From NCBI GenBank assembly GCA_031290195.1, contig JAITOA010000044.1:256-64255 (forward strand): a DNA stretch of 64,000 bases, written 5' to 3'. Made by a program: the position numbers and the translations under genes. Under the pieces are notes generated by a model. It was not told the DNA's origin. It saw only the letters and a program-made list of their open reading frames with translations, and did not search any database. Below are positions 1 to 44,127 of this stretch, one piece after another. Each line of letters opens with the position of its first letter. Position 1 is the first letter of the stretch. The DNA is from Puniceicoccales bacterium (GTDB lineage: Bacteria; Verrucomicrobiota; Verrucomicrobiia; Opitutales; JAIRLM01).

Positions 1-1361
1 TGCCGTGGAAGTAGGAGCGGTCTATGGCGGCAAGGTAGCCATTCCCCGACGGAACGAAGAGGACATTTTCCAGCGTGGCGAGGAGGCTATTCCCATCAAC
101 GGAAAGCCTGAAGGCAAACGGGTTGCCGTCCAGAAAAGCAACTACCCGGTCGGCGCAGAGGGTTCCCGCGGTCAACTCGTCCGCTTGAATTAGCGTGATG
201 CTGTCGCCGAATTCGAGGCCGGTCTCGTCTCCGGCGAAGTCGATTGTCACCAACGTGCCGTCTGGCCAGGAAGCGGTTTCGGATACTTGAAGTAGAAGGT
301 CGCCGTCGGCAACGTCTTCGGGAAGGGTAAAGTGAAACCTGTCAAAATTTTGAATGGATTTCACCGTTCCACACCAATTGTCAACGTGCAGCATGTTGTT
401 GGAGTGGATCGTGGATACTTCTCCTCCCCAACCATATAGATTTGAGTCCGTCAGATCTATGGCGCCAAGACCTCCGAGAATGCGTACGATGTTGTCGGAA
501 ATCACCGCACGGTCTTTACGGTCATAGGAAGCGTTGTAGTACCTTCCATGGCCACCGCAGATATCCGCCGTGATGGTTCCACCGCTGATTTCCACGACGT
601 TCCTGGTGCAAGGAATGTCTGAATAGGTATCTTTACGGACAAAGATGGACCCGCCGTAAATATTGGTCCTCTTTGACGCAGAACCGACGGTCGTTCCACT
701 TCCGGAGATGTAAATTTTGTTTCCGATGACGCTGCCGTCATTGGTGGCACCACCGCAAATTTCTGTTGCTTTCACTTCGGAGTCTTCGGTGATGGTGATG
801 GTGTTGTATTCCGTATGGTTGTCGTTATAACCTCCTATGATAGATTCGACTTCGGCGGAACCGCCGGAAATTGTCACGGTGTTTTCGAAAGTTAATAAAC
901 TTGCCCTGCCGCCATAAATTTCGACATATCCAGTCACCGTTCCGCCAATGGTGACGAAATTGCCGCGGGCGTAATTGCCATTTTGCGTATATCCGCCATA
1001 AACATAGCCGACCCGGGGATCCGGAAATCTCGTCGGATCACCGGTGAATATCACTGAATTATTATACACAACTGATTCATTAGCAGAGTGCAAGCCATAG
1101 AGGGTGTTGTTGCCTGAAAACGTGCAACCATCGACAATTAATTCACCTCCGGTAGCTCCAGATTCAGCTCCATAGCACTTTAAATTGGTTGAAACAGTAC
1201 TATCGGTGAGCATCGTTGCCGCCACTGCCTGCTGGGGAAGCAGTGGCGCCGCGGCGGCGAGCAGGATGGCCAGTGCTTTTCTCCATAGAGATTGTCCTAG
1301 TCGCGACCGCCGTTGAATTTTCCGGGGGACACATCCCCCCCCCCCCCCCGAAGGGGGGCAT
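1..1361 (-). CDS. Autotransporter / polymorphic-membrane-protein-like beta-helical passenger, partial (C-terminus lies beyond base 1); frame broken at a G15 tract after codon 4 (OFF as sequenced)
   Basis: Absent from the ORF track because there is no stop inside the window. My manual minus-strand translation is open from a TAG at about 1375 down to base 1. It reads ...PRKIQRRSRLGQSLWRKALAILLAAAAPLLPQQAVAATMLTDSTV..., which looks like a signal peptide. About 400 aa of 20-25 aa repeats with xGG cores follow (VYGGYT, EIYGGRA, TISGGSA, SIIGGYN, EICGGAT, NIYGGSI, EISGGTI, DICGGHG, RILGGLG), along with FSGN/FENT-type motifs. The only upstream ATG (1361) is out of frame by one base across the G15 tract. 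Confidence 0.7.
1335..1349 (-). repeat. Homopolymer: C15 on the + strand, G15 on the coding strand; followed on the + strand by G-AA-G6 (1350-1358)
   Basis: Counted directly: acat + 6 C (1335-1340) + 9 C (1341-1349) + g + aa + 6 G. It is by far the longest homopolymer I saw in the window; the others are 9 nt or shorter. Confidence 0.95.
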
Positions 1362-1523
1362 CCGTAAAGACTTTTCTACCCATGACCCCTGATTTTCTAA
1401 GGAAACACATGGATGGACAATATTTTTTTAGAATTGCCGGTGAATTTTCCAAAAAACTTCCCACAGGCTGAAGCCTTCTACGCAGTTTCCAAAGGATCAA
1501 TTTGATCCCCCGGTCACCCGACT

Positions 1524-2681
1524 TTACCGGTGGCGGGCACGAATGAGGTAAATAGCCAGAAAAATGCTGAAGAAAAGAGGGATAGCCATGTGGAGGTACA
1601 TCGTCCGGTATCCAAAAAAATCCGCAATGGCGCCGGAAAATAGCGGGCCAAGTCCATTTCCCACGTCAAATCCCAGGAAGAAGGTCGCCGTCGCAGCGCC
1701 AAAGTGGCAGGATTTTACGCCGACGAGGGCCATTACCTGAAGACTTCCCAGAAGGGCACCGAAGGATAGCCCGTGGAGAACGGCCGCCACCGACAGCCAT
1801 CCGGGAAACGGCGCATGGGCAAGGGCGAAAAAAGCAAGAAGAAGAAGAAACAGAGCCGGAATGGAAATAAAGAGGGCACTGTAGCGATCCACAAGACGGC
1901 CCGCAATGGGGCGGGAAATGAGCAATACCAGGGCAGAAATTGTAAAAAATGGCACGGCGGATGGACTTCCCAATTGCCGCGCATAGAGGGGCAAAAAACT
2001 GGTAATGGAGGAAGAGGCGGAAGCCACCATGAAAATAAGGAGGCAGGGAGGCAGGGCCGAACGGAGGAAAAGGGTGGATGCGGGACGGTCCGTGGCCGTT
2101 GTAGTGTCCCGGACGAAGGGTAGCCGCAGCCGTGAAGTCAGGAAAAATCCAAGAAAATTAAGGACGATGCAGGTCAAAAATAGTGCATTGAACGAATAAT
2201 GCTCCACGATGGCGAAGCCGACGGCCGGAGCCGCCCCCATGGCAATGCCGATGGAAAGAGTAAAAATTCCCATTCCTTCACCGAGACGGTTGGCCGGAAG
2301 CAGGCCGGCGACGATGGTGCTGACGGACGTGGCGGCGATCGCCCAAAAAAGACCGTGGAGAATGCGTACCGCCACCAAAGCAGCAATGCTGGTCGCAGCG
2401 AAGTAGGCCATCAGGGAAATTCCAAGACCTATTTGGGCACAGAGGAGAATTTTACGCCGGCCAAAGCGATCCAGCAGCAATCCACCGAACGGCCGAGAAA
2501 AGAGCATGGCAAAAACCATGGCACCGGAGCAGATACCAACGGAACGGTTATCACCTGCCAGCCGGTCCACGAGGAGAGGCAGAGTCGTCAGGAGCATCTG
2601 GGCGACAAAAAACGCGAGAATTTGGACGACGAATAGCCAGGCAAAGTTTGCCGTCCAGAATACGGGTGTGCGGGATTTCAT
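1524..2681 (-). CDS. MFS-family transporter
   Basis: 385 aa and hydrophobic throughout, with about 12 predicted TM segments. It carries the MFS loop motif LLLDRFGRRKILL between TM2 and TM3. Confidence 0.8.
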   Translation of the reverse strand: MKSRTPVFWTANFAWLFVVQILAFFVAQMLLTTLPLLVDRLAGDNRSVGICSGAMVFAMLFSRPFGGLLLDRFGRRKILLCAQIGLGISLMAYFAATSIAALVAVRILHGLFWAIAATSVSTIVAGLLPANRLGEGMGIFTLSIGIAMGAAPAVGFAIVEHYSFNALFLTCIVLNFLGFFLTSRLRLPFVRDTTTATDRPASTLFLRSALPPCLLIFMVASASSSITSFLPLYARQLGSPSAVPFFTISALVLLISRPIAGRLVDRYSALFISIPALFLLLLAFFALAHAPFPGWLSVAAVLHGLSFGALLGSLQVMALVGVKSCHFGAATATFFLGFDVGNGLGPLFSGAIADFFGYRTMYLHMAIPLFFSIFLAIYLIRARHR

Positions 2682-2690
2682 GGGAGAAAC

Positions 2691-4016
2691 TCAGACGGGG
2701 CAGGTCATTTTCTCCACTAAGTGCACGCTGGCCACAATTTCTTCGCTACCCGTCACCATGTTCCTCAGAGTGCAGCGGCCATCCGAGCCACTTTCTTCCC
2801 CGAATAGAACGGCGAACTTCGCTCCCGCCCGATCCGCCAATTTTAGCTGTTTTCCCATGGAAAGTCCCGGCGTCAGCGCATAGAGAACGCTGCGGCCGGC
2901 CAGGCGTAGATTTTGGGCTAGGCCAAGGGCAGCGGCCTGGGCACTGCCATCAAAAACAATCCAAAAATCGCAGCCACCACTGGGAGGAGGAAGTAGTTTC
3001 TTCTCCCGCAAAAGATTTCCAAGAGTCACGTCGCCGATGGCGAAGCCACAGGCCGGAAGAGATATTCCCGTAAGTTTTCCCACCAGATCGTCGTAGCGAC
3101 CTCCACCGGCCAGTGCCCTGGACTCTCCGGTCCGTTCGAAGGCCTCGAAGACGAATCCGGTATAGTAGGCCAATCCGCGGACGATTCCCACGTCGACGGT
3201 AACAAAATCTGCCAGTCCCAGGGCGCCTAAAAACTGCAGCAATTCCCTCCATTCCCCAAGACGCTCCATGGCCAAAGGCAGAGCTAGATTGGAAAAAAAG
3301 TTTTCAAGGGAATTCAAATCGCCGCAGCCGCAGAAGGAACTGGCGGCTCCTAGAAATTTTTCCACGGCGGCGGCGGTCGGAAAAAAAGTTTGCAACCGCT
3401 GCACCGTGATCTCCAAAGGAACCCGTCCCATTCGATCCATGATGCCGAGAACCTCCGGAGTGGAGCTGTCCCCAACGCCAAAGGAGGACAAAAAATGGAA
3501 CCACAGCCGACGATCACTGAGCCGCACCTGGAAATCGCCCGCCGCCAACCCGAAGGCTCGGAGGGAGGAGATGAGTACGGCCAGCACCTCCCCATCGCCA
3601 CGGACCCCCTTTTCCCCCAGCAGGTCCAAGTTCATCTGGTAAAATGCGCGCAGTCGACCCTTCTGGGGCCGTTCGTAGCGGAAATGTTCGCCCACGGTAA
3701 ACCATCGGATGGGCCGGCGAAGACTGGCCGCCCTGGCTCCCACCATGCGGGCCAGGGTTGGCGTCATCTCCGGGCGGAGTGCGACGGAACGGCCGCCGCG
3801 GTCCTGGAATTGGAAGAGCTGCTCCGCTATTTCCGGACCGGATTTTTCCGTAAAAAGTTCCAATGGTTCCAGAATGGGCCCATCAAATTCTTCGAAGCCA
3901 AAGCCACCGGCTACCCGGCGGAAAGTGGAAAAAATGTAATTCCGCAGTGCGCAGTCCTCCGGATAGAAGTCCCGAAATCCTGGCAAAACATCGACCATGG
4001 CACCACCGTGAACCAT
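2691..4016 (-). CDS. hisS: Histidyl-tRNA synthetase
   Basis: Class II motifs are present: FRYERPQKGRLRAFYQMNLDLLG, RGLAYYTG and GGGRYD. I prefer the start at MVHGGAMVDVLPGFRDF (ATG 4016; alternative 3998). The track start at 4139 would overlap the upstream gene. Confidence 0.9.
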   Translation of the reverse strand: MVHGGAMVDVLPGFRDFYPEDCALRNYIFSTFRRVAGGFGFEEFDGPILEPLELFTEKSGPEIAEQLFQFQDRGGRSVALRPEMTPTLARMVGARAASLRRPIRWFTVGEHFRYERPQKGRLRAFYQMNLDLLGEKGVRGDGEVLAVLISSLRAFGLAAGDFQVRLSDRRLWFHFLSSFGVGDSSTPEVLGIMDRMGRVPLEITVQRLQTFFPTAAAVEKFLGAASSFCGCGDLNSLENFFSNLALPLAMERLGEWRELLQFLGALGLADFVTVDVGIVRGLAYYTGFVFEAFERTGESRALAGGGRYDDLVGKLTGISLPACGFAIGDVTLGNLLREKKLLPPPSGGCDFWIVFDGSAQAAALGLAQNLRLAGRSVLYALTPGLSMGKQLKLADRAGAKFAVLFGEESGSDGRCTLRNMVTGSEEIVASVHLVEKMTCPV

Positions 4017-4030
4017 TTTTATTGCCGCTG

Positions 4031-5383
4031 TCAAGTCCCGGCCACCTTCGCCTTTAACCCATGCCAGCCACCGCAACCATTGGCAATCAGGACCAGTGCG
4101 CCGGACTCCCGGAGCACGGCCGCAAAAAATTCCTCCCACTCTTTCATTCGCGACCTCTCGCCGCCATCACCTTCAGTTTCAGGAGTAGGCACGCCCTTCA
4201 ATTTTCCTCCTTTGCGGAGCCGGTCGGTCCAGGCTCTAAGCCGGATTATATCCAGGTAAAAATTTTCTTCGCCGAGGCAAAATTTCACATGCTCCACTGG
4301 ACTTCCTTCTCCGCAGTGCCATAGTTCCCCATTTCCAGCTCCATCAAACACCAAACAGATAGGCTGCCCATGGCCACGGACGGCAATTTCGACGGAATCG
4401 CTTGCCCGAACCTGCTTCCCAATCGGAACGACGCCTTCGAGGTCGAAGTGTCTCTGTTTTATCAGTTGTCGAGTGAGAGGGTGAATGCCTCCGTCTTCCC
4501 GGGAAATTTCCTTGGTTGCGCAGCCATCTATGGCGTGGAGAAGGGTTTCCAACAGAAGGAAATATTCCCAGGTCTCCCCATCCAGAAGTGCGGCGCTAAA
4601 TCTATCGCGGGCAATTTTATAGGATTCCATCAGGGTAAAAAAATTTTCTTTTCTGGGGAAATTTTCGAAATGCTTCCTCTGACTCTCGTAAAAATTAATG
4701 AAAAAATCTATCCCTTCCCGGTTGGGAACTTGGAAAAATAGGTCCTTGAAATTTCCGTTTGGAAGAATTCCAACGTTACTGGGGATGGGGAAACCTCTTG
4801 GAATGGCCTGGATTGCGGCAAGGTCCGGCGTGACCCCCATTCCGCTTAAAAGGGGAACGAGCACGGAACAATGTCGGATTAGCGCACTGTAAATGTACAG
4901 CAGGTGCTGCAGGGCGTCGCCGTGCAGGAAACAGAACAGGGCAGCCCGATTGCTTTCAGGGGTCGAATGCAGTAAATTTTTATTTTCTTCGGCGGCAGCT
5001 CGCTGCACTTTCTTTTCCGGAGAAAGCAGGTTTTGCAAAATTTTTCCGGCATTCGGTGCTTTTTCCCCGTCCAGACCATTCAACATCGGTGCCAACGACG
5101 CCCGATATTCCGCCATCATTTTTGCATGGATGACGTCCCGAAATTTTTGCCAGCCGGCATCGGATTCCTCTTTGAAATGGGCGACACAGCGGTGGAAGTG
5201 ATCTGCAAAGCCTTTGGGGGTAAAACATTTCCAAGTACATCCGAGAAATTTTACCTCTCCCTCTGCTGCCCGGACGCAGACACTCGATGCACCTTCCACG
5301 CCATCCATTGGCTTCCAGTATTTCCCGTGACACCGGCATTGCAATGGAAAAAGCCGATGGGTCCGGCCCCACTTTTCGGCCAA
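4031..5383 (-). CDS. Hypothetical protein with a Cys/His-rich N-terminus
   Basis: 450 aa ORF, co-directional with hisS and ending 15 nt before it. The N-terminus reads CRCHGKYW...CTWKC...HFHRCVAHF, possibly metal-binding. I recognise no family. Confidence 0.55.
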   Translation of the reverse strand: MAEKWGRTHRLFPLQCRCHGKYWKPMDGVEGASSVCVRAAEGEVKFLGCTWKCFTPKGFADHFHRCVAHFKEESDAGWQKFRDVIHAKMMAEYRASLAPMLNGLDGEKAPNAGKILQNLLSPEKKVQRAAAEENKNLLHSTPESNRAALFCFLHGDALQHLLYIYSALIRHCSVLVPLLSGMGVTPDLAAIQAIPRGFPIPSNVGILPNGNFKDLFFQVPNREGIDFFINFYESQRKHFENFPRKENFFTLMESYKIARDRFSAALLDGETWEYFLLLETLLHAIDGCATKEISREDGGIHPLTRQLIKQRHFDLEGVVPIGKQVRASDSVEIAVRGHGQPICLVFDGAGNGELWHCGEGSPVEHVKFCLGEENFYLDIIRLRAWTDRLRKGGKLKGVPTPETEGDGGERSRMKEWEEFFAAVLRESGALVLIANGCGGWHGLKAKVAGT

Positions 5384-5465
5384 TGGGACCCTCTCCGAGG
5401 GGCAAAAACATTTGACTCTTCAGTCGGAGAATTCTAGCAAGAAAGAACGGCGGGCGCAGGTTATT

Positions 5466-8372
5466 ATGCTGGGAATAGGAAACATTTGGCGACGGCTGGT
5501 AGGTCGTCATTACCGTAAATTTTTGCGGCGCTGTGATCCGCTGCTGCAGAAAATCAATGAATGGGACAGTGCTTTCCGTTCCCTCTCCGACGGAGAATTG
5601 GCGCAAAAAACAGAGGAATTTCGTCGTCGCCTGGGTGGGGGAGAAGTTCTGGACACGCTTCTACCGGAGGCCTTTGGCGTCATAAAAAATGCAGCCCGGA
5701 GACTCTGCGGAAAAAAATTGTCCGTTTGCGGGGAGGAGTTGGAGTGGCAAATGGTCCCCTACGATATGCAGCTCATCGGAGGCATTGCTTTGCATTCCAA
5801 TAAAATAGCGGAAATGGCAACGGGTGAAGGGAAGACCCTTGTAGCCACTCTTCCCCTCTACCTCAACGCACTGACGGGACGCAACTGCCAGCTGGTGACC
5901 GTCAATGACTACCTGGCCCGGCGGGACGCAGAGTGGATGGGTTATCTTTTTTCTTTCCTTGGAATTAGCGTCGGTTGCATTCAGAGCGTCATGGACCCGG
6001 AAGAACGGCGGCGGGCCTACGGCTGCGACGTCACCTACGGAACGGCGGCAGAGTTCGGCTTTGACTACCTGCGCGACAACGGTCTGGCCTATTCTCCGGA
6101 GGAGCAGGTGCAGAGGGATCACTACTTCTGCATCGTGGATGAAATTGACTCGGTTCTTGTGGATGAGGCCCGGACTCCGCTAGTTATTTCCGGCCCCATG
6201 GCAGAGGAACGAGTGGCCCCCTATGGAGAACTTTGCGGATCGGTGCAGCGGCTCGTACAATTGCAGACGCAAATTTGCAATCGTCTCATCGGAGAAGCAA
6301 AGGAACTGATGGATAGAAATCCATCCGATGAAACGGCATTTTCAAAATTGTACGCAGTGAGCATGGGCATGCCCAAGCATCGGCAGCTGTGCAAATTGCT
6401 GGAATTCGGCCCCATTGGAAAGCGACTGGAGCGACTGGGGGGAGAAATGGCCAGTGACCTTCGGAGGGACGAGCGCTTTGCACTGCGGGAAAGCCTCTAC
6501 TTCACCGTCGACGAGCGGCAAAACACGGCGGACCTGACGGAGCTGGGCCGCACGGCTCTCTATCCCGATGACCCGGACGCCTTTGTTCTCCCAGATCTCG
6601 CGGAAATTTTTTCCGAAATTGACCGGCGAAATGACCTCACCTTTCCGGAAAAACAGGAGCAAAAGCGGCGGCAGAGTGAACGAGCGGCGGCCATCGGAGA
6701 ACGCATTCACTGCATTGGCCAGCTGGTCCGCGCCCACATCCTCTTCGAAAAGGACCAGCACTACATTGTCCACGGCGGCCAGGTGCTCATCGTGGACCCC
6801 AACACCGGCCGCGCCATGCAAGGGCGCCGCTGGAGCGATGGACTCCACCAGGCCGTGGAGGCCAAGGAGAACCTTACAATCCAAAAGGAAAGTCGCACCT
6901 TCGCCACGATCACTGTTCAAAATTATTTTCGACTCTACGAGAAGTTGGCCGGAATGACGGGTACAGCGGAGACGGAGGCCCAGGAATTTCACGATATCTA
7001 CAGGCTCTCCGTAGTGGTGATCCCCACGCACCAACCCTGCATTCGCAGGGATGAAAACGACGTTATCTACAAAACTCGACGGGAGAAGTATGCGGCGGTG
7101 ATCGAAGACATTGGGGAGGCCCACGGCCGAGGGCAGCCGGTGCTGGTGGGAACAACGTCCGTAGAGGCATCGGAATTGCTGGGAAAAATGCTCCACATGA
7201 AAAAATTGCCCCACACCATCCTCAATGCAAAATTCCATGAAACGGAGGCAAAGATTATTGCAAGAGCGGGGGCCGTCGGAGCTATTACCCTCGCCACCAA
7301 CATGGCGGGCCGAGGAACGGACATCCGTCTTGCCGATGGTGTGTGTGCTCTCGGAGGACTGCGGGTCATTGGAACCGAACGCCATGAATCTCGCCGTATC
7401 GACCGACAGCTGCGGGGGCGCTGTGCTCGGCAGGGGGATCCGGGGGCGTCGAAATTTTACATTTCCCTGGAAGACGACCTCATGCGGCTTTTCGCTAGCC
7501 GTGGACCTATCGCTGCCATCCTCGACCGCACCTTTCGGGAAGGAGACGTACTGACACACCCCCTGCTAAATCGTTCCATCGGCAGTGCCCAGCGGAAGGT
7601 GGAGCAGCAAAACTATGCCATCCGCCGCCGGCTCCTCCAGTACGACGATGTGCTCAATGTACAGAGAGATGTGATCTATGCCATTCGCAATGGCGCGCTG
7701 CACAGTGAACGGCCAAAAGAGATTATTGAGGAATTACTTTCCGAGGAACTTGCCGTTCTGTGCTCCTTTGATGGCGAAAGTGAAATGGCCTCAGAGGAAG
7801 CGATGCAGCGGCTGCGCATGCTATTCCCCATCGTCGTTGAGCGGGAAAAGTTAGCTGGATTGAAGCCGGATGAAAGGGTGGAGCTGCTGATGGAACGGAT
7901 CCGGAAAGCCTATGCGGCCAAGGAGGAATTGGAGGATCCGGAGGTGCTGCGGCGGCTGGAACGCATTATCCTATTGAGAACCATCGACCACCACTGGCAG
8001 GTGCATCTGACGGAAATGGATGACCTGCGCCACGGCGTTGGCCTGCGAAGTTACGCTCAAAAGAATCCACTCTATGAATATAAAGCCGAAGCCTTCGATC
8101 GCTTTGAGCAGCTCATGGGGGCGGTACGGCGGGAGGTGGCATTTTCCCTGTTCCGTTCGGCCAGCAGCGCGGAAAAATTCCAGGAAATTCTGCAGAAGAT
8201 TCACCATTTTGGCGGCGGGGAATCCCTAAAAAATCCACCGCTGGAACCAGAAAAAAAGACGCACCAAATTTTGCGAAGCACGCTTTCTCGGGCGGTGATC
8301 GCCGACACCGGTCGCAATGAACTCTGCCCTTGCGGTAGCGGGAAAAAATATAAGAAATGTTGCGGAAGTTGA
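5466..8372 (+). CDS. secA: Preprotein translocase ATPase SecA
   Basis: DEAD-motor motifs are present (MATGEGKTLVATLP, DEIDSVLVDEARTPLVISG, TNMAGRGTDI), plus the C-terminal zinc motif CPCGSGKKYKKCCG. I prefer the start at MLGIGNIWRR (ATG 5466). The track TTG at 5412 coincides with a TTGACT -35-like box. Confidence 0.95.
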   Translation: MLGIGNIWRRLVGRHYRKFLRRCDPLLQKINEWDSAFRSLSDGELAQKTEEFRRRLGGGEVLDTLLPEAFGVIKNAARRLCGKKLSVCGEELEWQMVPYDMQLIGGIALHSNKIAEMATGEGKTLVATLPLYLNALTGRNCQLVTVNDYLARRDAEWMGYLFSFLGISVGCIQSVMDPEERRRAYGCDVTYGTAAEFGFDYLRDNGLAYSPEEQVQRDHYFCIVDEIDSVLVDEARTPLVISGPMAEERVAPYGELCGSVQRLVQLQTQICNRLIGEAKELMDRNPSDETAFSKLYAVSMGMPKHRQLCKLLEFGPIGKRLERLGGEMASDLRRDERFALRESLYFTVDERQNTADLTELGRTALYPDDPDAFVLPDLAEIFSEIDRRNDLTFPEKQEQKRRQSERAAAIGERIHCIGQLVRAHILFEKDQHYIVHGGQVLIVDPNTGRAMQGRRWSDGLHQAVEAKENLTIQKESRTFATITVQNYFRLYEKLAGMTGTAETEAQEFHDIYRLSVVVIPTHQPCIRRDENDVIYKTRREKYAAVIEDIGEAHGRGQPVLVGTTSVEASELLGKMLHMKKLPHTILNAKFHETEAKIIARAGAVGAITLATNMAGRGTDIRLADGVCALGGLRVIGTERHESRRIDRQLRGRCARQGDPGASKFYISLEDDLMRLFASRGPIAAILDRTFREGDVLTHPLLNRSIGSAQRKVEQQNYAIRRRLLQYDDVLNVQRDVIYAIRNGALHSERPKEIIEELLSEELAVLCSFDGESEMASEEAMQRLRMLFPIVVEREKLAGLKPDERVELLMERIRKAYAAKEELEDPEVLRRLERIILLRTIDHHWQVHLTEMDDLRHGVGLRSYAQKNPLYEYKAEAFDRFEQLMGAVRREVAFSLFRSASSAEKFQEILQKIHHFGGGESLKNPPLEPEKKTHQILRSTLSRAVIADTGRNELCPCGSGKKYKKCCGS

Positions 8373-8857
8373 TGATGGACAAACAAAGAGGCGGTATTTT
8401 GGGGGTCGGCGTGGACCTGATAGAAGTGAACCGCATTCGAAAGGCTCACAGGCGTTGGGGCGATCAATTTTTAAGACGTATTTTTACCGAGGAAGAGGTC
8501 CGCCATTGCTTTTCCAGGATCGACCCCTACCAATCCCTGGCCGCAAGATTTGCCGGAAAGGAGGCCGCGGCAAAGGCACTTTCCAGTGGCTTCGGGGCAC
8601 AACTTTCCTTCCGGTCCATTGCCATCGTCTCCAAAAAAAATGGTGCCCCCCAGGTAATTCTGGAGGAGACAAAGAGCGTATTGCTTCTCGGCAAAAAGCT
8701 GCTCGTTTCTCTGTCTCATACGGCTAAATTTGCCCTTGCCCAGGTAGTTCTCTGCGGCTCCCTTCCCTCGGACCAAACGGACGACCGAATCCCCATGGAG
8801 GGTGTTTCGCAACCTCTGACCAATTCTGATAACCCCAATTTCCTTACGAAAAACTAG
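8372..8857 (+). CDS. acpS: Holo-ACP synthase (4'-phosphopantetheinyl transferase)
   Basis: Contains GVGVDLIEVNRI and ARFAGKEAAAKAL. The ATG shares its A with the secA TGA stop (TGATG overlap). It has a C-terminal tail of about 35 aa beyond the usual AcpS length. Confidence 0.85.
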   Translation: MMDKQRGGILGVGVDLIEVNRIRKAHRRWGDQFLRRIFTEEEVRHCFSRIDPYQSLAARFAGKEAAAKALSSGFGAQLSFRSIAIVSKKNGAPQVILEETKSVLLLGKKLLVSLSHTAKFALAQVVLCGSLPSDQTDDRIPMEGVSQPLTNSDNPNFLTKN

Positions 8858-9061
8858 TTCCTGTCCTGCAAGTTTTCAGAGCAAAAATTTCGCCGCTGAA
8901 ACTATTTTGCGTACCCGAGAGACCGAATATTATCGTAGAAATCGGACCTTGGAAAATTTTTCCAACAAGAAGTGGAGCTAGAATTAGGAATGATTCGTCC
9001 ATGGAGCAATTTATGTAGATTGGTGTGCCGCCAAAACAGACAGAGTTTTGAAATAATAGAC

Positions 9062-9090
9062 TTGACCCGCCCTCCTAAATAGCACACATT
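9062..9090 (+). promoter_or_regulatory. Sigma70-like promoter candidate for the patatin gene (TTGACC-17-CACATT), with the -10 ending 8 nt before the ATG
   Basis: Read directly: cTTGACCcgccctcctaaatagcaCACATTcctaaaaaATG. Confidence 0.4.
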
Positions 9091-9098
9091 CCTAAAAA

Positions 9099-42600: not shown

Positions 42601-43181
42601 TGGAAGCGAAAAAGTTATTCCCATTCGATGAAGTTTGCCGGCTGCGGGAAAGTTGGCGGGCGGAGGGGCACCGCGTTGCGTTGACAAACGGCTGCTTTGA
42701 TTTGCTTCATCCCGGTCATCTTTTTCTCCTGGAACAGGCAGCACAATTTGGTCAGCGACTTATTGTCGCGCTGAATTCCGATGGCAGCGTACGGACGTTG
42801 AAGGGTGCTGGACGACCCATTCTCCACGAGTACTTGCGCGCCTACTCTCTCTCCGCCGTTCGGTGGGTGGATGCCGTTTTCCTCTTTGATGGCACTCGGG
42901 CCGTTGAAGAAATTCGCCGGTTGAAGCCCGACGTCTATGTGCGGGCGGCGGACCGCACCGTCACTGACCTGGATTCCCGGGAACTGCGGGCCCTGGGAGA
43001 GGTCAATGCCACCATCGAATTCGTAGAATTTTTCCCTAATTTGAGTACCACGGCCATCGTCAGGGAAGTTCGCGGGAGGCCATCCCCCGGAGGGAGTTCC
43101 CTCCCCCCAGTTGCCCTTCGATGGCCTCCACCCGGCGAAAAAGTTCTGGGATGCGCCGCCGCAGGACAAAAAAACGATTAG
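42600..43181 (+). CDS. Cytidylyltransferase-fold nucleotidyltransferase (RfaE domain II / HldC-like)
   Basis: [17 protein letters not shown] (HxGH motif) and [10 protein letters not shown]. The ATG overlaps the thrS TGA by 1 nt. The 3' end overlaps lpxD convergently by about 120 nt. Confidence 0.75.
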
Positions 43182-44127
43182 CTTCCCCAATGGGCATGGC
43201 CGGCGTACCGCGGACAACGGTATCGTCGGCCACATCCGAGGAGACCCCTCCCTGGGCAGCCACCCTAACCCTGGATCCAACGGTCAGATGGCCGGCGACG
43301 CCAGCCTGTCCGGCAAGTACGACCCATTCGCCGATTTTTGTGCTTCCTGCAATGCCCACCTGCGCCACAAGAAGAGAATTCTGCCCAATCTCAACGTTGT
43401 GGGCAATCTGCACCAGATTGTCGATCTTCGTTCCTTTTCCAATGCGTGTCATAGCAAAACGAGCCCTGTCGACGCAGCTGTTGGCACCAATTTCAACGTC
43501 TTCTTCGATGATGACTCCGCCGATGTGGGGTAATTTTCGATGCCCATCTGCCTCCGGGGAGTAACCGTAGCCATCACTGCCCAAAACGGCACCGCTATGA
43601 ATAATGGACCGTGCGCCGACGGTGCAATCGCAGTAGAGAGTCACACGCGGATGAAACCGAACACCCTCTCCAACGGTGCAGCGGGGTCCAATGGTGCAGT
43701 GGGAACCGATGGTGCAGCTAGGGCCGACGGTCACTTCCTCTCCAAGGACGCAGAAGGGCCCGATGGAGGAGGTTGGGTGGATATTTGCCGTTGCCGCGAC
43801 GATGGCCGTCGGATGCACCCCGGAGGGGAGAGAAATTTTCCGATCCCCTTCGACGGCGGCGCAGAGTTTTCCGAGGGCCATGGATGGGTCAGGTAGAAAA
43901 AAATAGGCAACTCCTTCCGGAGGTTCTCCGGAAAAATTTTGGGGAAGGAGCAAAATGGAGGCCCTGGAATGCGATACAAGGGACGCATATTTGCCGTTGC
44001 TCAAAAAGGAAAGGTCACCCAGATTCGCCGACTCCAGCGAGGAGATGCCCGTGATCGCAGCCCAGCACCGACCCTTCACGATTTCCGGAGATAGCAACTT
44101 TTCCAGCTCCTCCTGGTCATAGCGCAT
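43060..44127 (-). CDS. lpxD: UDP-3-O-acylglucosamine N-acyltransferase
   Basis: N-terminal uridine-binding region, then a run of left-handed beta-helix hexapeptide repeats including [11 protein letters not shown]. 355 aa. Confidence 0.9.

What the first reader, a model, noticed from the sequence alone, without database searches (positions are those of the whole stretch)
1297..1375. G15 tract four codons into a hidden Pmp/autotransporter-like gene: predicted slipped-strand ON/OFF switch, OFF as sequenced
Seen in the sequence:
- The minus strand reads ATG(1361) CCC CCC TTC, then G15 (1349-1335), then ATGTGTCCCCCGG.
- With 15 G, the ATG frame gives MPPFGGGGGMCPPENST... and stops at 1200-1202 after 58 codons.
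- The long passenger ORF, open from about 1375 to base 1, sits in the adjacent frame. It has no ATG, GTG or TTG ahead of its signal-peptide-like segment.
- With 14 G (or 11 or 17), the ATG joins it. The product would be MPPFGGGGGCVPRKIQRRSRLGQSLWRKALAILLAAAAPLLPQQAVAA-TMLTD..., which has a basic n-region, a hydrophobic core and an AxA-type cleavage site.

Established knowledge: homopolymeric G/C tracts at the 5' ends of surface-protein genes drive phase variation. Examples are the contingency loci of Neisseria and Haemophilus and the poly-G tracts in Chlamydia pneumoniae pmp genes.

Inference: this is a contingency locus. The ORF track misses the gene because its stop lies outside the window.

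Side note: G15 is just long enough for a three-tetrad G-quadruplex, and the neighbouring C6 run (G6 at 1353-1358 on the + strand) could pair with part of it as a hairpin.
Basis: partly seen in the sequence, partly recalled or inferred. Interest (0 to 1): 0.72.

Follow-up and report, generated by a model that had tools for sequence, protein, structure and literature searches.

The report
Poly-G frame switch in autotransporter gene

Summary
The minus strand reads ATG(1361) CCCCCC TTC G15(1349-1335). This is the only G/C run longer than 8 in 64 kb. The passenger frame is open from 1375 to base 1 and has no ATG, GTG or TTG before its signal-peptide core. One detail is wrong: the ATG-1361 ORF is 53 codons, not 58.

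The gene is NCBI LBS68_03170 of a Puniceicoccales MAG. NCBI annotates it only from an internal GTG and as partial. It is a distant relative (28-38% identity) of autotransporters that carry PF03797. It is not a chlamydial Pmp.

The main correction concerns the start codon. A paralog in the same MAG (LBS68_00940) begins MGKKVFADTPLGG..RKIQRR..KALAILLAAAAPLLP. This matches the window on both sides of the tract, but upstream it matches the third frame (ATG 1383, MGRKVFTDAPLRGGGG). The likely start is therefore ATG 1383, which is in frame at G13/16/19. G15 is OFF for both.

Phase variation remains an inference. The only other assembly of this locus breaks 7 nt before the tract, and no reads were available. 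A consensus length error of one base, or a recent pseudogene, cannot be excluded. This is a new member of a known kind, of modest interest.

The parts
1335..1349 (-). G15 homopolymer (C15 on the + strand). It is the proposed slipped-strand tract and encodes the Gly run of the leader.
   Evidence: the only G/C run longer than 8 in 64 kb; the longest run in 1.3 Mb of related loci is 11.
1381..1383 (-). ATG, the most likely start codon (MGRKVFTDAPLRGGGG...). It is in frame with the passenger at G13/16/19.
   Evidence: Paralog LBS68_00940 starts MGKKVFADTPLGG and continues into the shared leader. Frame table.
1408..1410 (-). Upstream ATG in the same frame as ATG 1383 (MCFLRKSGVMGRKVF...). An alternative start with the same ON lengths.
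1359..1361 (-). It is in frame with the passenger at G11/14/17 and is a possible secondary start.
   Evidence: The paralog has D-T where the window has D-A, so this ATG is not conserved there (inference from the protein).
1353..1358 (-). C6 run. It can pair with the first G's of the tract through a UUCG-type loop.
   Evidence: The fold is not better than shuffles (z = 0.6 and -1.2).
1322..1326 (-). C5 run just after the tract. It is a second, shorter homopolymer where the frame slip relative to the paralog could also lie.
   Evidence: The paralog reads GG-VS-LLRKIQ. The window frame from ATG 1383 with G15 reads GGGG-D-VS-PGKF.
1220..1333 (-). Remainder of the leader in the passenger frame: CVPRKIQRRSRLGQSLWRK (basic n-region), ALAILLAAAAPLLP (h-region) and QQAVA|A (predicted cleavage).
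   Evidence: net charge +9 before the h-region, and best 11-residue Kyte-Doolittle window of 2.46. It is 71% identical to the paralog leader.
1..1219 (-). Passenger region with seven (I/V)(Y/C/I/L)GG repeats and the NxLHVDNW...IQNF..FxFTLP module. It runs off the window and then off the contig.
   Evidence: AF2 model is all-beta with mean pLDDT 79.
1297..1299 (-). TAG that ends translation from ATG 1383 or 1410 at G15 (28 or 37 aa).
1200..1202 (-). TAG that ends translation from ATG 1361 at G15 (53 aa).
1376..1378 (-). TAG that closes the passenger frame upstream, so no start exists in that frame at G15.

Best explanation
The locus is a simple-sequence-repeat translational switch on a chromosomal autotransporter-like surface-protein gene (NCBI LBS68_03170) of an uncultured Puniceicoccales bacterium.

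How it is built (shown): The G tract lies inside the long N-terminal leader. It is downstream of the start codon and upstream of the hydrophobic core of the signal peptide. Its length therefore decides whether ribosomes that start upstream reach the signal peptide and passenger in frame. Every start is out of frame at the assembled length of 15.

Which start is used (inferred from the paralog): The start conserved in a paralog, ATG 1383, is in frame at 13, 16 or 19 G. It gives MGRKVFTDAPLRGGGGGCVPRKIQRR...KALAILLAAAAPLLPQQAVA|A. A second ATG at 1361, in another frame, is in frame at 11, 14 or 17 G and might provide a weaker second ON state. At 12, 15 or 18 G, translation stops after 28-53 codons (OFF).

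How it would switch (inferred from established knowledge of homopolymeric contingency loci): Slipped-strand mispairing during replication should change a tract this long at high frequency. The population would then be a mixture of ON and OFF cells for this surface protein.
For: - The tract is real in the assembly and far beyond chance.
- The passenger frame stays open for at least 540 codons downstream of the shift: 444 in the window plus 87 more in NCBI protein P0001. That argues against old decay.
- The leader is conserved with paralog LBS68_00940 on both sides of the tract. It is 71% identical, and the paralog reads in frame from MGKKVF through the h-region.
- The leader has signal-peptide features.
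- Homology to autotransporters is collinear with P0041, running into the first ~45 residues of its PF03797 beta-domain.
- The gene sits in a chromosomal housekeeping context: MFS transporter, HisRS, SecA, ThrRS, AspRS and RNR.
- There is precedent. The N. meningitidis autotransporters NalP and MspA carry 6-15 bp polyC tracts in their coding sequence, with ON at every third length, and assemblies break at these tracts (PMC3723659).
- An independent short-read assembly of the same population (2 mismatches in 11,326 bp) ends 7 nt before the tract.
Against: - No read-level or between-strain variation in tract length was seen. Only one assembly crosses the tract.
- A 15-base homopolymer in a MAG consensus can be off by one base.
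- The Logan contig ends before the tract begins. That fits a coverage or quality drop, or a repeat shared with the paralog, at least as well as length heterogeneity.
- It is the only long G/C tract in 64 kb, and the rest of the genome could not be examined.
- The paralog has only GG at the homologous position.
- No orthologue exists in any searched collection, so tract conservation cannot be tested.
- There is no clear Shine-Dalgarno sequence before any of the three ATGs. Most genes in the window also lack one.
- The beta-barrel and the stop codon lie beyond the contig end.
Confidence: 0.55

Rival explanations
1. Consensus length error. The true modal tract is 16 (or 13 or 14) G. The gene is simply intact and ON in most cells, and the apparent frameshift is an assembly or polishing artefact of a long homopolymer. 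This does not exclude hypermutability of the tract.
For: Homopolymers of this length are miscalled by all common platforms (general knowledge). The independent Logan assembly fails to cross the site. One extra G restores the paralog-supported reading frame exactly. NCBI's pipeline had to start the gene at an internal GTG.
Against: There are no data on platform or coverage. The only sequence available says 15. Even if true, a 14-16 G tract in a coding leader would still be expected to slip.
Confidence: 0.25
2. ATG 1361 is the sole start and ON is G14 (or 11 or 17).
For: ATG 1361 exists and joins the passenger at those lengths, giving a plausible leader.
Against: - The paralog starts 7 codons further upstream in another frame (MGKKVFADTPLGG) and has D-T where the window has D-A, so this ATG is not conserved.
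- ATG 1361 is followed directly by the C6-UUC-G6 hairpin, or by a predicted G-quadruplex. Either would lie inside the ribosome footprint (the inhibitory effect is inferred).
- Ribosomes starting at 1383 would read through it.
Confidence: 0.12
3. Recent pseudogene. The autotransporter gene has been inactivated by a frameshift in a homopolymer and is not under selection. The tract has no switching role.
For: - The gene is out of frame as assembled.
- The paralog LBS68_00940 is only 87 aa, which suggests this family may be decaying.
- There is no close orthologue anywhere.
Against: At least 540 downstream codons have no stop. A G15 tract is not expected to arise or persist neutrally: expectation is about 3e-5 per window, and the maximum in relatives is 11. 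The frameshift lies exactly at, or next to, the one reversible site.
Confidence: 0.1
4. Expression is rescued at the RNA or ribosome level. Transcriptional slippage of RNA polymerase on the G15 run, or ribosomal frameshifting, would produce some in-frame product whatever the DNA length. The tract would then tune the level rather than switch it.
For: Long homopolymers are known to cause transcriptional slippage (established for poly-A/T runs; less documented for G). The tract is on the sense strand, so the mRNA carries G15.
Against: There is no direct evidence here. Documented cases mostly involve A/T runs. A predicted stable G-quadruplex or hairpin is not a known frameshift signal at this position.
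Confidence: 0.06
5. The tract lies in a 5' untranslated or promoter region. Translation would start downstream at a non-canonical codon (ATT 1318 or CTG 1273), so tract length would affect transcription or mRNA structure, not the reading frame.
For: Rare-start codons exist in the passenger frame before the h-region.
Against: The paralog's annotated protein reads through the equivalent region in frame, and residues on both sides of the tract are conserved. No promoter-like hexamers were found in 1100-1700. ATT and CTG starts are rare.
Confidence: 0.03

Closest known systems
NalP and MspA of Neisseria meningitidis (phase-variable autotransporters with polyC tracts in the coding sequence)
   Same: Both have a homopolymeric G/C tract of similar length (6-15 bp) inside the 5' part of an autotransporter ORF. 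Both are ON only at every third length. Assemblies break at the tract in both (PMC3723659).
   Different: There is no sequence relationship beyond the autotransporter architecture. Variation and the ON/OFF phenotype were shown experimentally there and are not shown here. The host here is an uncultured verrucomicrobial lineage.
Chlamydia pneumoniae pmp genes with poly-G tracts
   Same: A poly-G tract gates translation of a type V secreted surface protein (own knowledge).
   Different: The passenger here lacks the GGA[ILV]/FxxN motifs and gives no Pfam Pmp match. It is not a member of the Pmp family.
Campylobacter jejuni/coli autotransporter genes (capA and others) with poly-G tracts
   Same: Poly-G tracts in autotransporter genes are linked with phase variation and decay (title and abstract of PMC7168839).
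   Different: The phylum and passenger type differ. I did not read that paper beyond its abstract.
Haemophilus influenzae lic1 (licA), with start codons in more than one frame upstream of the repeat
   Same: ATGs lie in two of the three frames upstream of the repeat (1383/1410 and 1361). Two of three length classes could therefore give product, possibly at different levels (own knowledge of lic1; frames).
   Different: lic1 uses a CAAT tetranucleotide repeat and encodes a cytoplasmic enzyme. Use of the second start is untested here.
YGG-repeat autotransporters of Negativicutes and other gut bacteria (for example the Phascolarctobacterium 'autotransporter outer membrane beta-barrel domain-containing protein', P0012)
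   Same: They are the closest sequence relatives of the passenger (28-38% identity). They share the repeat (N.V.I.GG....YGG) and the NxLxV..W...IxNF..F.F.LP module, followed by PF03797.
   Different: They start with ordinary signal peptides and have no G tract in the proteins seen. The leader of the window gene is found only in this MAG.

Membership tests
Classical (type Va) autotransporter | N-terminal Sec signal peptide | tested here: met
   This holds only when the frame is restored. Features: net charge +9 before the core, the core ALAILLAAAAPLLP (best Kyte-Doolittle window 2.46) and AVA|A. The test is heuristic; SignalP was not available.
Classical (type Va) autotransporter | Beta-helical passenger domain | tested here: inconclusive
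   The AF2 model has mean pLDDT 79 and pTM 0.82, and is all-beta with short periodic strands. Foldseek against the PDB puts autotransporter passengers near the top (Ag43, TibA, EspC, pertactin), but E >= 7.5e-3 and TM <= 0.27.
Classical (type Va) autotransporter | C-terminal 12-strand beta-barrel (Pfam PF03797) | tested here: inconclusive
   The region is outside the window and mostly beyond the contig end. There is no Pfam hit on the 546 aa available. The last ~45 aa of P0001 do align collinearly with the start of the PF03797 domain of P0041.
Classical (type Va) autotransporter | Sequence homology to proteins that carry the beta-domain | tested here: met
   There are 178 library proteins at E <= 1e-3 and 22 at E <= 1e-10. 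Many hits carry PF03797. BLASTP against P0041 gives E = 2e-28.
Chlamydial polymorphic membrane protein (Pmp) | Repeated GGA[ILV] and FxxN motifs in the passenger | tested here: not met
   0 GGA[ILV] and 1 FxxN in 546 aa.
Chlamydial polymorphic membrane protein (Pmp) | Match to the Pfam Pmp repeat or middle-domain models | tested here: not met
   No Pfam family at E <= 0.01. At E <= 10 there is only one spurious hit.
Simple-sequence-repeat contingency (phase-variable) locus | Repeat tract long enough to be hypermutable, within or just upstream of an ORF | tested here: met
   G15 lies in the 5' coding leader and is unique in the window.
Simple-sequence-repeat contingency (phase-variable) locus | A change in tract length switches a start codon in or out of frame with an otherwise intact ORF | tested here: met
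   Frame table. The downstream ORF is open for at least 540 codons.
Simple-sequence-repeat contingency (phase-variable) locus | Observed tract-length heterogeneity within a population or between strains | not testable with these tools
   No reads were available. The only other assembly (Logan SRR14710898) ends at window 1356, 7 nt before the tract. No related locus was found in the genome or metagenome collections.
Simple-sequence-repeat contingency (phase-variable) locus | Several such loci in the same genome, typically in surface-structure genes | not testable with these tools
   Only this 64-kb window of the MAG could be read, and it holds no other run longer than 8. The paralog's DNA was not retrievable.

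The most novel reading that the evidence does not exclude
The locus is a three-state switch. ATG 1383 (ON at G16/13) and ATG 1361 (ON at G14/17) lie in different frames upstream of the tract. Two of three length classes would then make the autotransporter with different N-terminal leaders, and probably at different levels, while one class is OFF. The G15 in the mRNA, as a predicted three-tetrad G-quadruplex or a C6/G6 UUCG hairpin, would add a translational brake. I found no paper in the searched library reporting slipped-strand phase variation in Verrucomicrobiota. This would therefore be a first example for that phylum, in a deep-branching lineage that appears symbiont-like.
Probability: 0.12. 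Interest if true: 0.45.

Novelty: new member of a known kind. Interest (0 to 1): 0.3.

Why it matters
If reads confirm mixed tract lengths, stochastic ON/OFF control of a surface adhesin-like protein would extend to an uncultured Puniceicoccales lineage. This strategy is textbook for Neisseria, Haemophilus, Campylobacter and Chlamydia. It would imply fluctuating selection on this bacterium's surface from a host, protists or phages.

There is also a practical point for annotation. The pipeline annotation of this gene starts at an internal GTG and loses the signal peptide. Homopolymer-gated genes in MAGs are therefore systematically mis-called. The mechanism itself would not be new.

Tried and rejected
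- **Pmp membership.** Rejected on motifs and Pfam.
- **Paralogs in the window.** tblastn found none.
- **Orthologues or other copies of the leader.**
  - An alignment-based scan of genome contigs found 182 pattern matches and none confirmed.
  - The same scan of metagenome contigs found 284 matches and none confirmed.
  - A word-index search with the leader found only the paralog.
- **Paralog and NCBI contig DNA.** Exact-protein look-ups for P0001 and P0075 returned 'not on record'. The paralog's tract could not be read.
- **HisRS-anchored synteny scan.**
  - The nearest genomes share only 46-55% HisRS identity.
  - None of the 80 loci holds an autotransporter homolog or a G/C run longer than 11.
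  - The orthologue test is therefore uninformative.
- **Hairpin significance.** The folds are not better than dinucleotide shuffles. The hairpin remains a possibility only.
- **Promoter and terminator scan of 1100-1700.** Nothing found.
- **Shine-Dalgarno argument for choosing a start.** Dropped, because most genes in the window lack one.
- **Source paper.** A literature search for the source sample found nothing.

Full report
**1. The observation**

On the minus strand the window reads ...GGTC ATG(1383) GGT AGA AAA GTC TTT ACG G ATG(1361) CCCCCC TTC G15(1349-1335) ATG TGT CCCCC GG AAA ATT.... The G15 (C15 on the plus strand) is the only G/C run longer than 8 in the 64 kb. Run counts fall from 85 (length 5) to 13, 2 and 2 (length 8), and then jump to this single run of 15. 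Extrapolating that decay gives roughly 3e-5 expected runs of 15 or more per window. In 1.3 Mb of loci fetched from related Opitutia genomes the longest G/C run is 11.

The passenger frame is closed upstream by TAG 1378-1376 and is open from 1375 to base 1. It has no ATG, GTG or TTG before the hydrophobic segment. The description is therefore correct apart from the codon count.

**2. What the gene is**

The window comes from an NCBI MAG named 'Puniceicoccales bacterium'. The gene is LBS68_03170 (MDR3317038.1), a 'hypothetical protein, partial' on a 67,755-bp contig. NCBI starts it at an internal GTG (window 1051, 'VIFTGD'). That start lacks the signal peptide. The gene runs off the contig end 87 residues past window base 1.

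Neither Pfam nor NCBIfam matches it. An exhaustive HMMER search finds 178 relatives at E <= 1e-3, with the best at 38% identity. The word-index search finds 28-31% relatives, many of which carry PF03797. Some are named 'autotransporter outer membrane beta-barrel domain-containing protein', from Phascolarctobacterium.

The alignment to P0041 is collinear. It runs through the (I/V)YGG repeats and the 'NxLHV.NW....IxNF..F.FTLP' module, and into the first ~45 residues of P0041's PF03797 domain. An AlphaFold model of the window part is all-beta with short periodic strands (pLDDT 79). Its best PDB matches are autotransporter passengers, but these are not significant.

It has none of the Pmp hallmarks: 0 GGA[ILV], 1 FxxN and no Pmp Pfam hit. 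'Autotransporter-like' is therefore supported and 'Pmp-like' is not. The beta-barrel itself is unseen.

The neighbourhood is ordinary chromosome: MFS transporter, HisRS, SecA, ACPS, a Na/H exchanger, ThrRS, AspRS and RNR.

**3. The start codon: the main correction**

The exhaustive search also returned an 87-aa protein, P0075, that matches only the leader at 71% identity. It is LBS68_00940 (MDR3316628.1), from an 8,888-bp contig of the same MAG. Its sequence is MGKKVFADTPLGGVSLLRKIQRRPRLGQSLRKKALAILLAAAAPLLPPQAVA....

Downstream of the tract this aligns with the window's passenger frame (..PRKIQRRSRLGQSLWRKALAILLAAAAPLLPQQAVA). Upstream of the tract it aligns with the window's third frame: ATG 1383, MGRKVFTDAPLRGGGG. 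The paralog thus reads uninterrupted from an MG(K/R)KVF start through the position of the tract into the signal peptide.

The most likely start is therefore ATG 1383, or the in-frame ATG 1410. The frame table shows it joins the passenger at G13/16/19. ATG 1361 does so at G11/14/17. At G12/15/18 every start terminates within 28-54 codons.

With G16 the product starts MGRKVFTDAPLRGGGGGCVPRKIQRRSRLGQSLWRKALAILLAAAAPLLPQQAVA|A. This is a 55-56-residue leader with net charge +9 before a strongly hydrophobic core and an AxA site. Most genes in the window lack a Shine-Dalgarno sequence, so its absence is not informative.

One caveat applies. The paralog reads GG-VS-LLRKIQ, and the window's ATG-1383 frame at G15 reads GGGG-D-VS-PGKF. 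The slip relative to the paralog could therefore equally sit in the C5 run at 1326-1322, since C6 would give ...GGGGDVSPRKIQRR. This rests on two residues only and needs the paralog's DNA.

**4. Is it a switch?**

The anatomy fits a slipped-strand contingency locus:
- The G tract is very long and non-random.
- It lies between the start codon and the signal-peptide core of a surface-protein gene.
- The gene is otherwise intact for at least 540 codons.
- A one-base change in either direction puts one of the upstream ATGs in frame.

The closest precedents are the meningococcal autotransporters NalP and MspA. They carry 6-15 bp polyC tracts in the coding sequence, are ON at every third length, and have tracts that sometimes split assemblies (PMC3723659).

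The defining property, length heterogeneity, could not be tested. The only other assembly of this population is the Logan contig SRR14710898_11307. It has 2 mismatches in 11,326 bp and stops at window 1356, inside the C6 run and 7 nt before the first G. A break before the tract fits a coverage or quality drop, or a repeat shared with the paralog, at least as well as length polymorphism.

No orthologue or further copy of the leader exists in the genome or metagenome collections. The nearest genomes share only 46-55% HisRS identity and have no autotransporter at this locus.

The assembled length of 15 is a MAG consensus and could be off by one. If the true mode is 16, the gene is simply ON. I put 0.55 on a genuine length-dependent switch, 0.25 on a consensus length error (which is compatible with the switch), about 0.1 on a recent pseudogene, and small weights on the other rivals.

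**5.

The C6/UUC/G6 hairpin and a second G5-6/C5 hairpin are predicted. They are no better than dinucleotide shuffles (z = 0.6 for RNA and -1.2 for DNA). With ViennaRNA's G-quadruplex model switched on, the G15 in the mRNA is predicted to form a three-tetrad quadruplex: -68.3 versus -49.0 kcal/mol for the 130-nt region. This is an energy-model result only. Either structure would lie within the ribosome footprint of ATG 1361 but outside that of ATG 1383. That is a further, inferred, reason to prefer 1383.

**6. Novelty and verdict**

Phase-variable autotransporters gated by G/C homopolymers are well known. Full-text searches pairing Verrucomicrobia with slipped-strand or homopolymeric phase variation returned nothing relevant. 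The phylum may therefore be new for this mechanism, but the mechanism is not.

This is a new member of a known kind. The evidence for it is structural, not population-level. Interest is about 0.3.

Noticed in passing
window 1356 (end of Logan contig SRR14710898_11307 = L001/L002): An independent short-read assembly of the same population matches window 1356-12681 with 2 mismatches in 11,326 bp. It terminates inside the C6 run, 7 nt before the G15 tract. No Logan protein matching the autotransporter or its leader is in the protein collection.
   Followed up: partly
not in window: NCBI MDR3316628.1 (LBS68_00940), 8,888-bp contig of the same MAG: A paralog shares the 5' leader (71% identity) but is only 87 aa long and has GG where the window has the G tract. 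It may be a second truncated or frame-shifted member of a small family that shares one leader. Its DNA could not be retrieved.
   Followed up: partly
L053 17223-17236 (Cerasicoccus arenae KCTC 12870, NZ_BMXG01000007.1): A cultured relative has ATG followed directly by C11 at the start of a 128-aa ORF with a CxxC...CxxC motif and hydrophobic segments (MPPPPSSEIISRGLTGCCPKCG...). It is in frame as sequenced. This is another long G/C homopolymer at the very 5' end of a gene in the same order.
   Followed up: partly
window 1322-1326 and 1353-1358: The G15 tract is flanked on both sides by complementary C runs (C6 upstream, C5 downstream). Runs of this length are themselves uncommon: the window holds 7 C6 and 46 C5 runs.
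   Followed up: partly
window 2691-4139 and loci L003-L082: The HisRS of this MAG is at most 55% identical to any HisRS locus in the GTDB species-representative collection. The nearest are Puniceicoccales MAGs with 'k119_' contig names. The MAG itself is not in that collection, so it is a deep-branching lineage.
   Followed up: partly
window 4031-5383 (-), 33947-35770 (+), 56279-58195 (-): Three large ORFs (425-450, 607 and 638 aa) have no Pfam match at the thresholds used.
   Followed up: no
window 43669-43731: An imperfect 18-nt tandem repeat of about 3 copies (TCCAATGGTGCAGCGGGA) lies inside the ORF 43060-44127.
   Followed up: no
window-wide: A/T homopolymers are frequent (44 A runs and 23 T runs of 7 or more). 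G/C runs of 7 or more number only five, including the G15.
   Followed up: no
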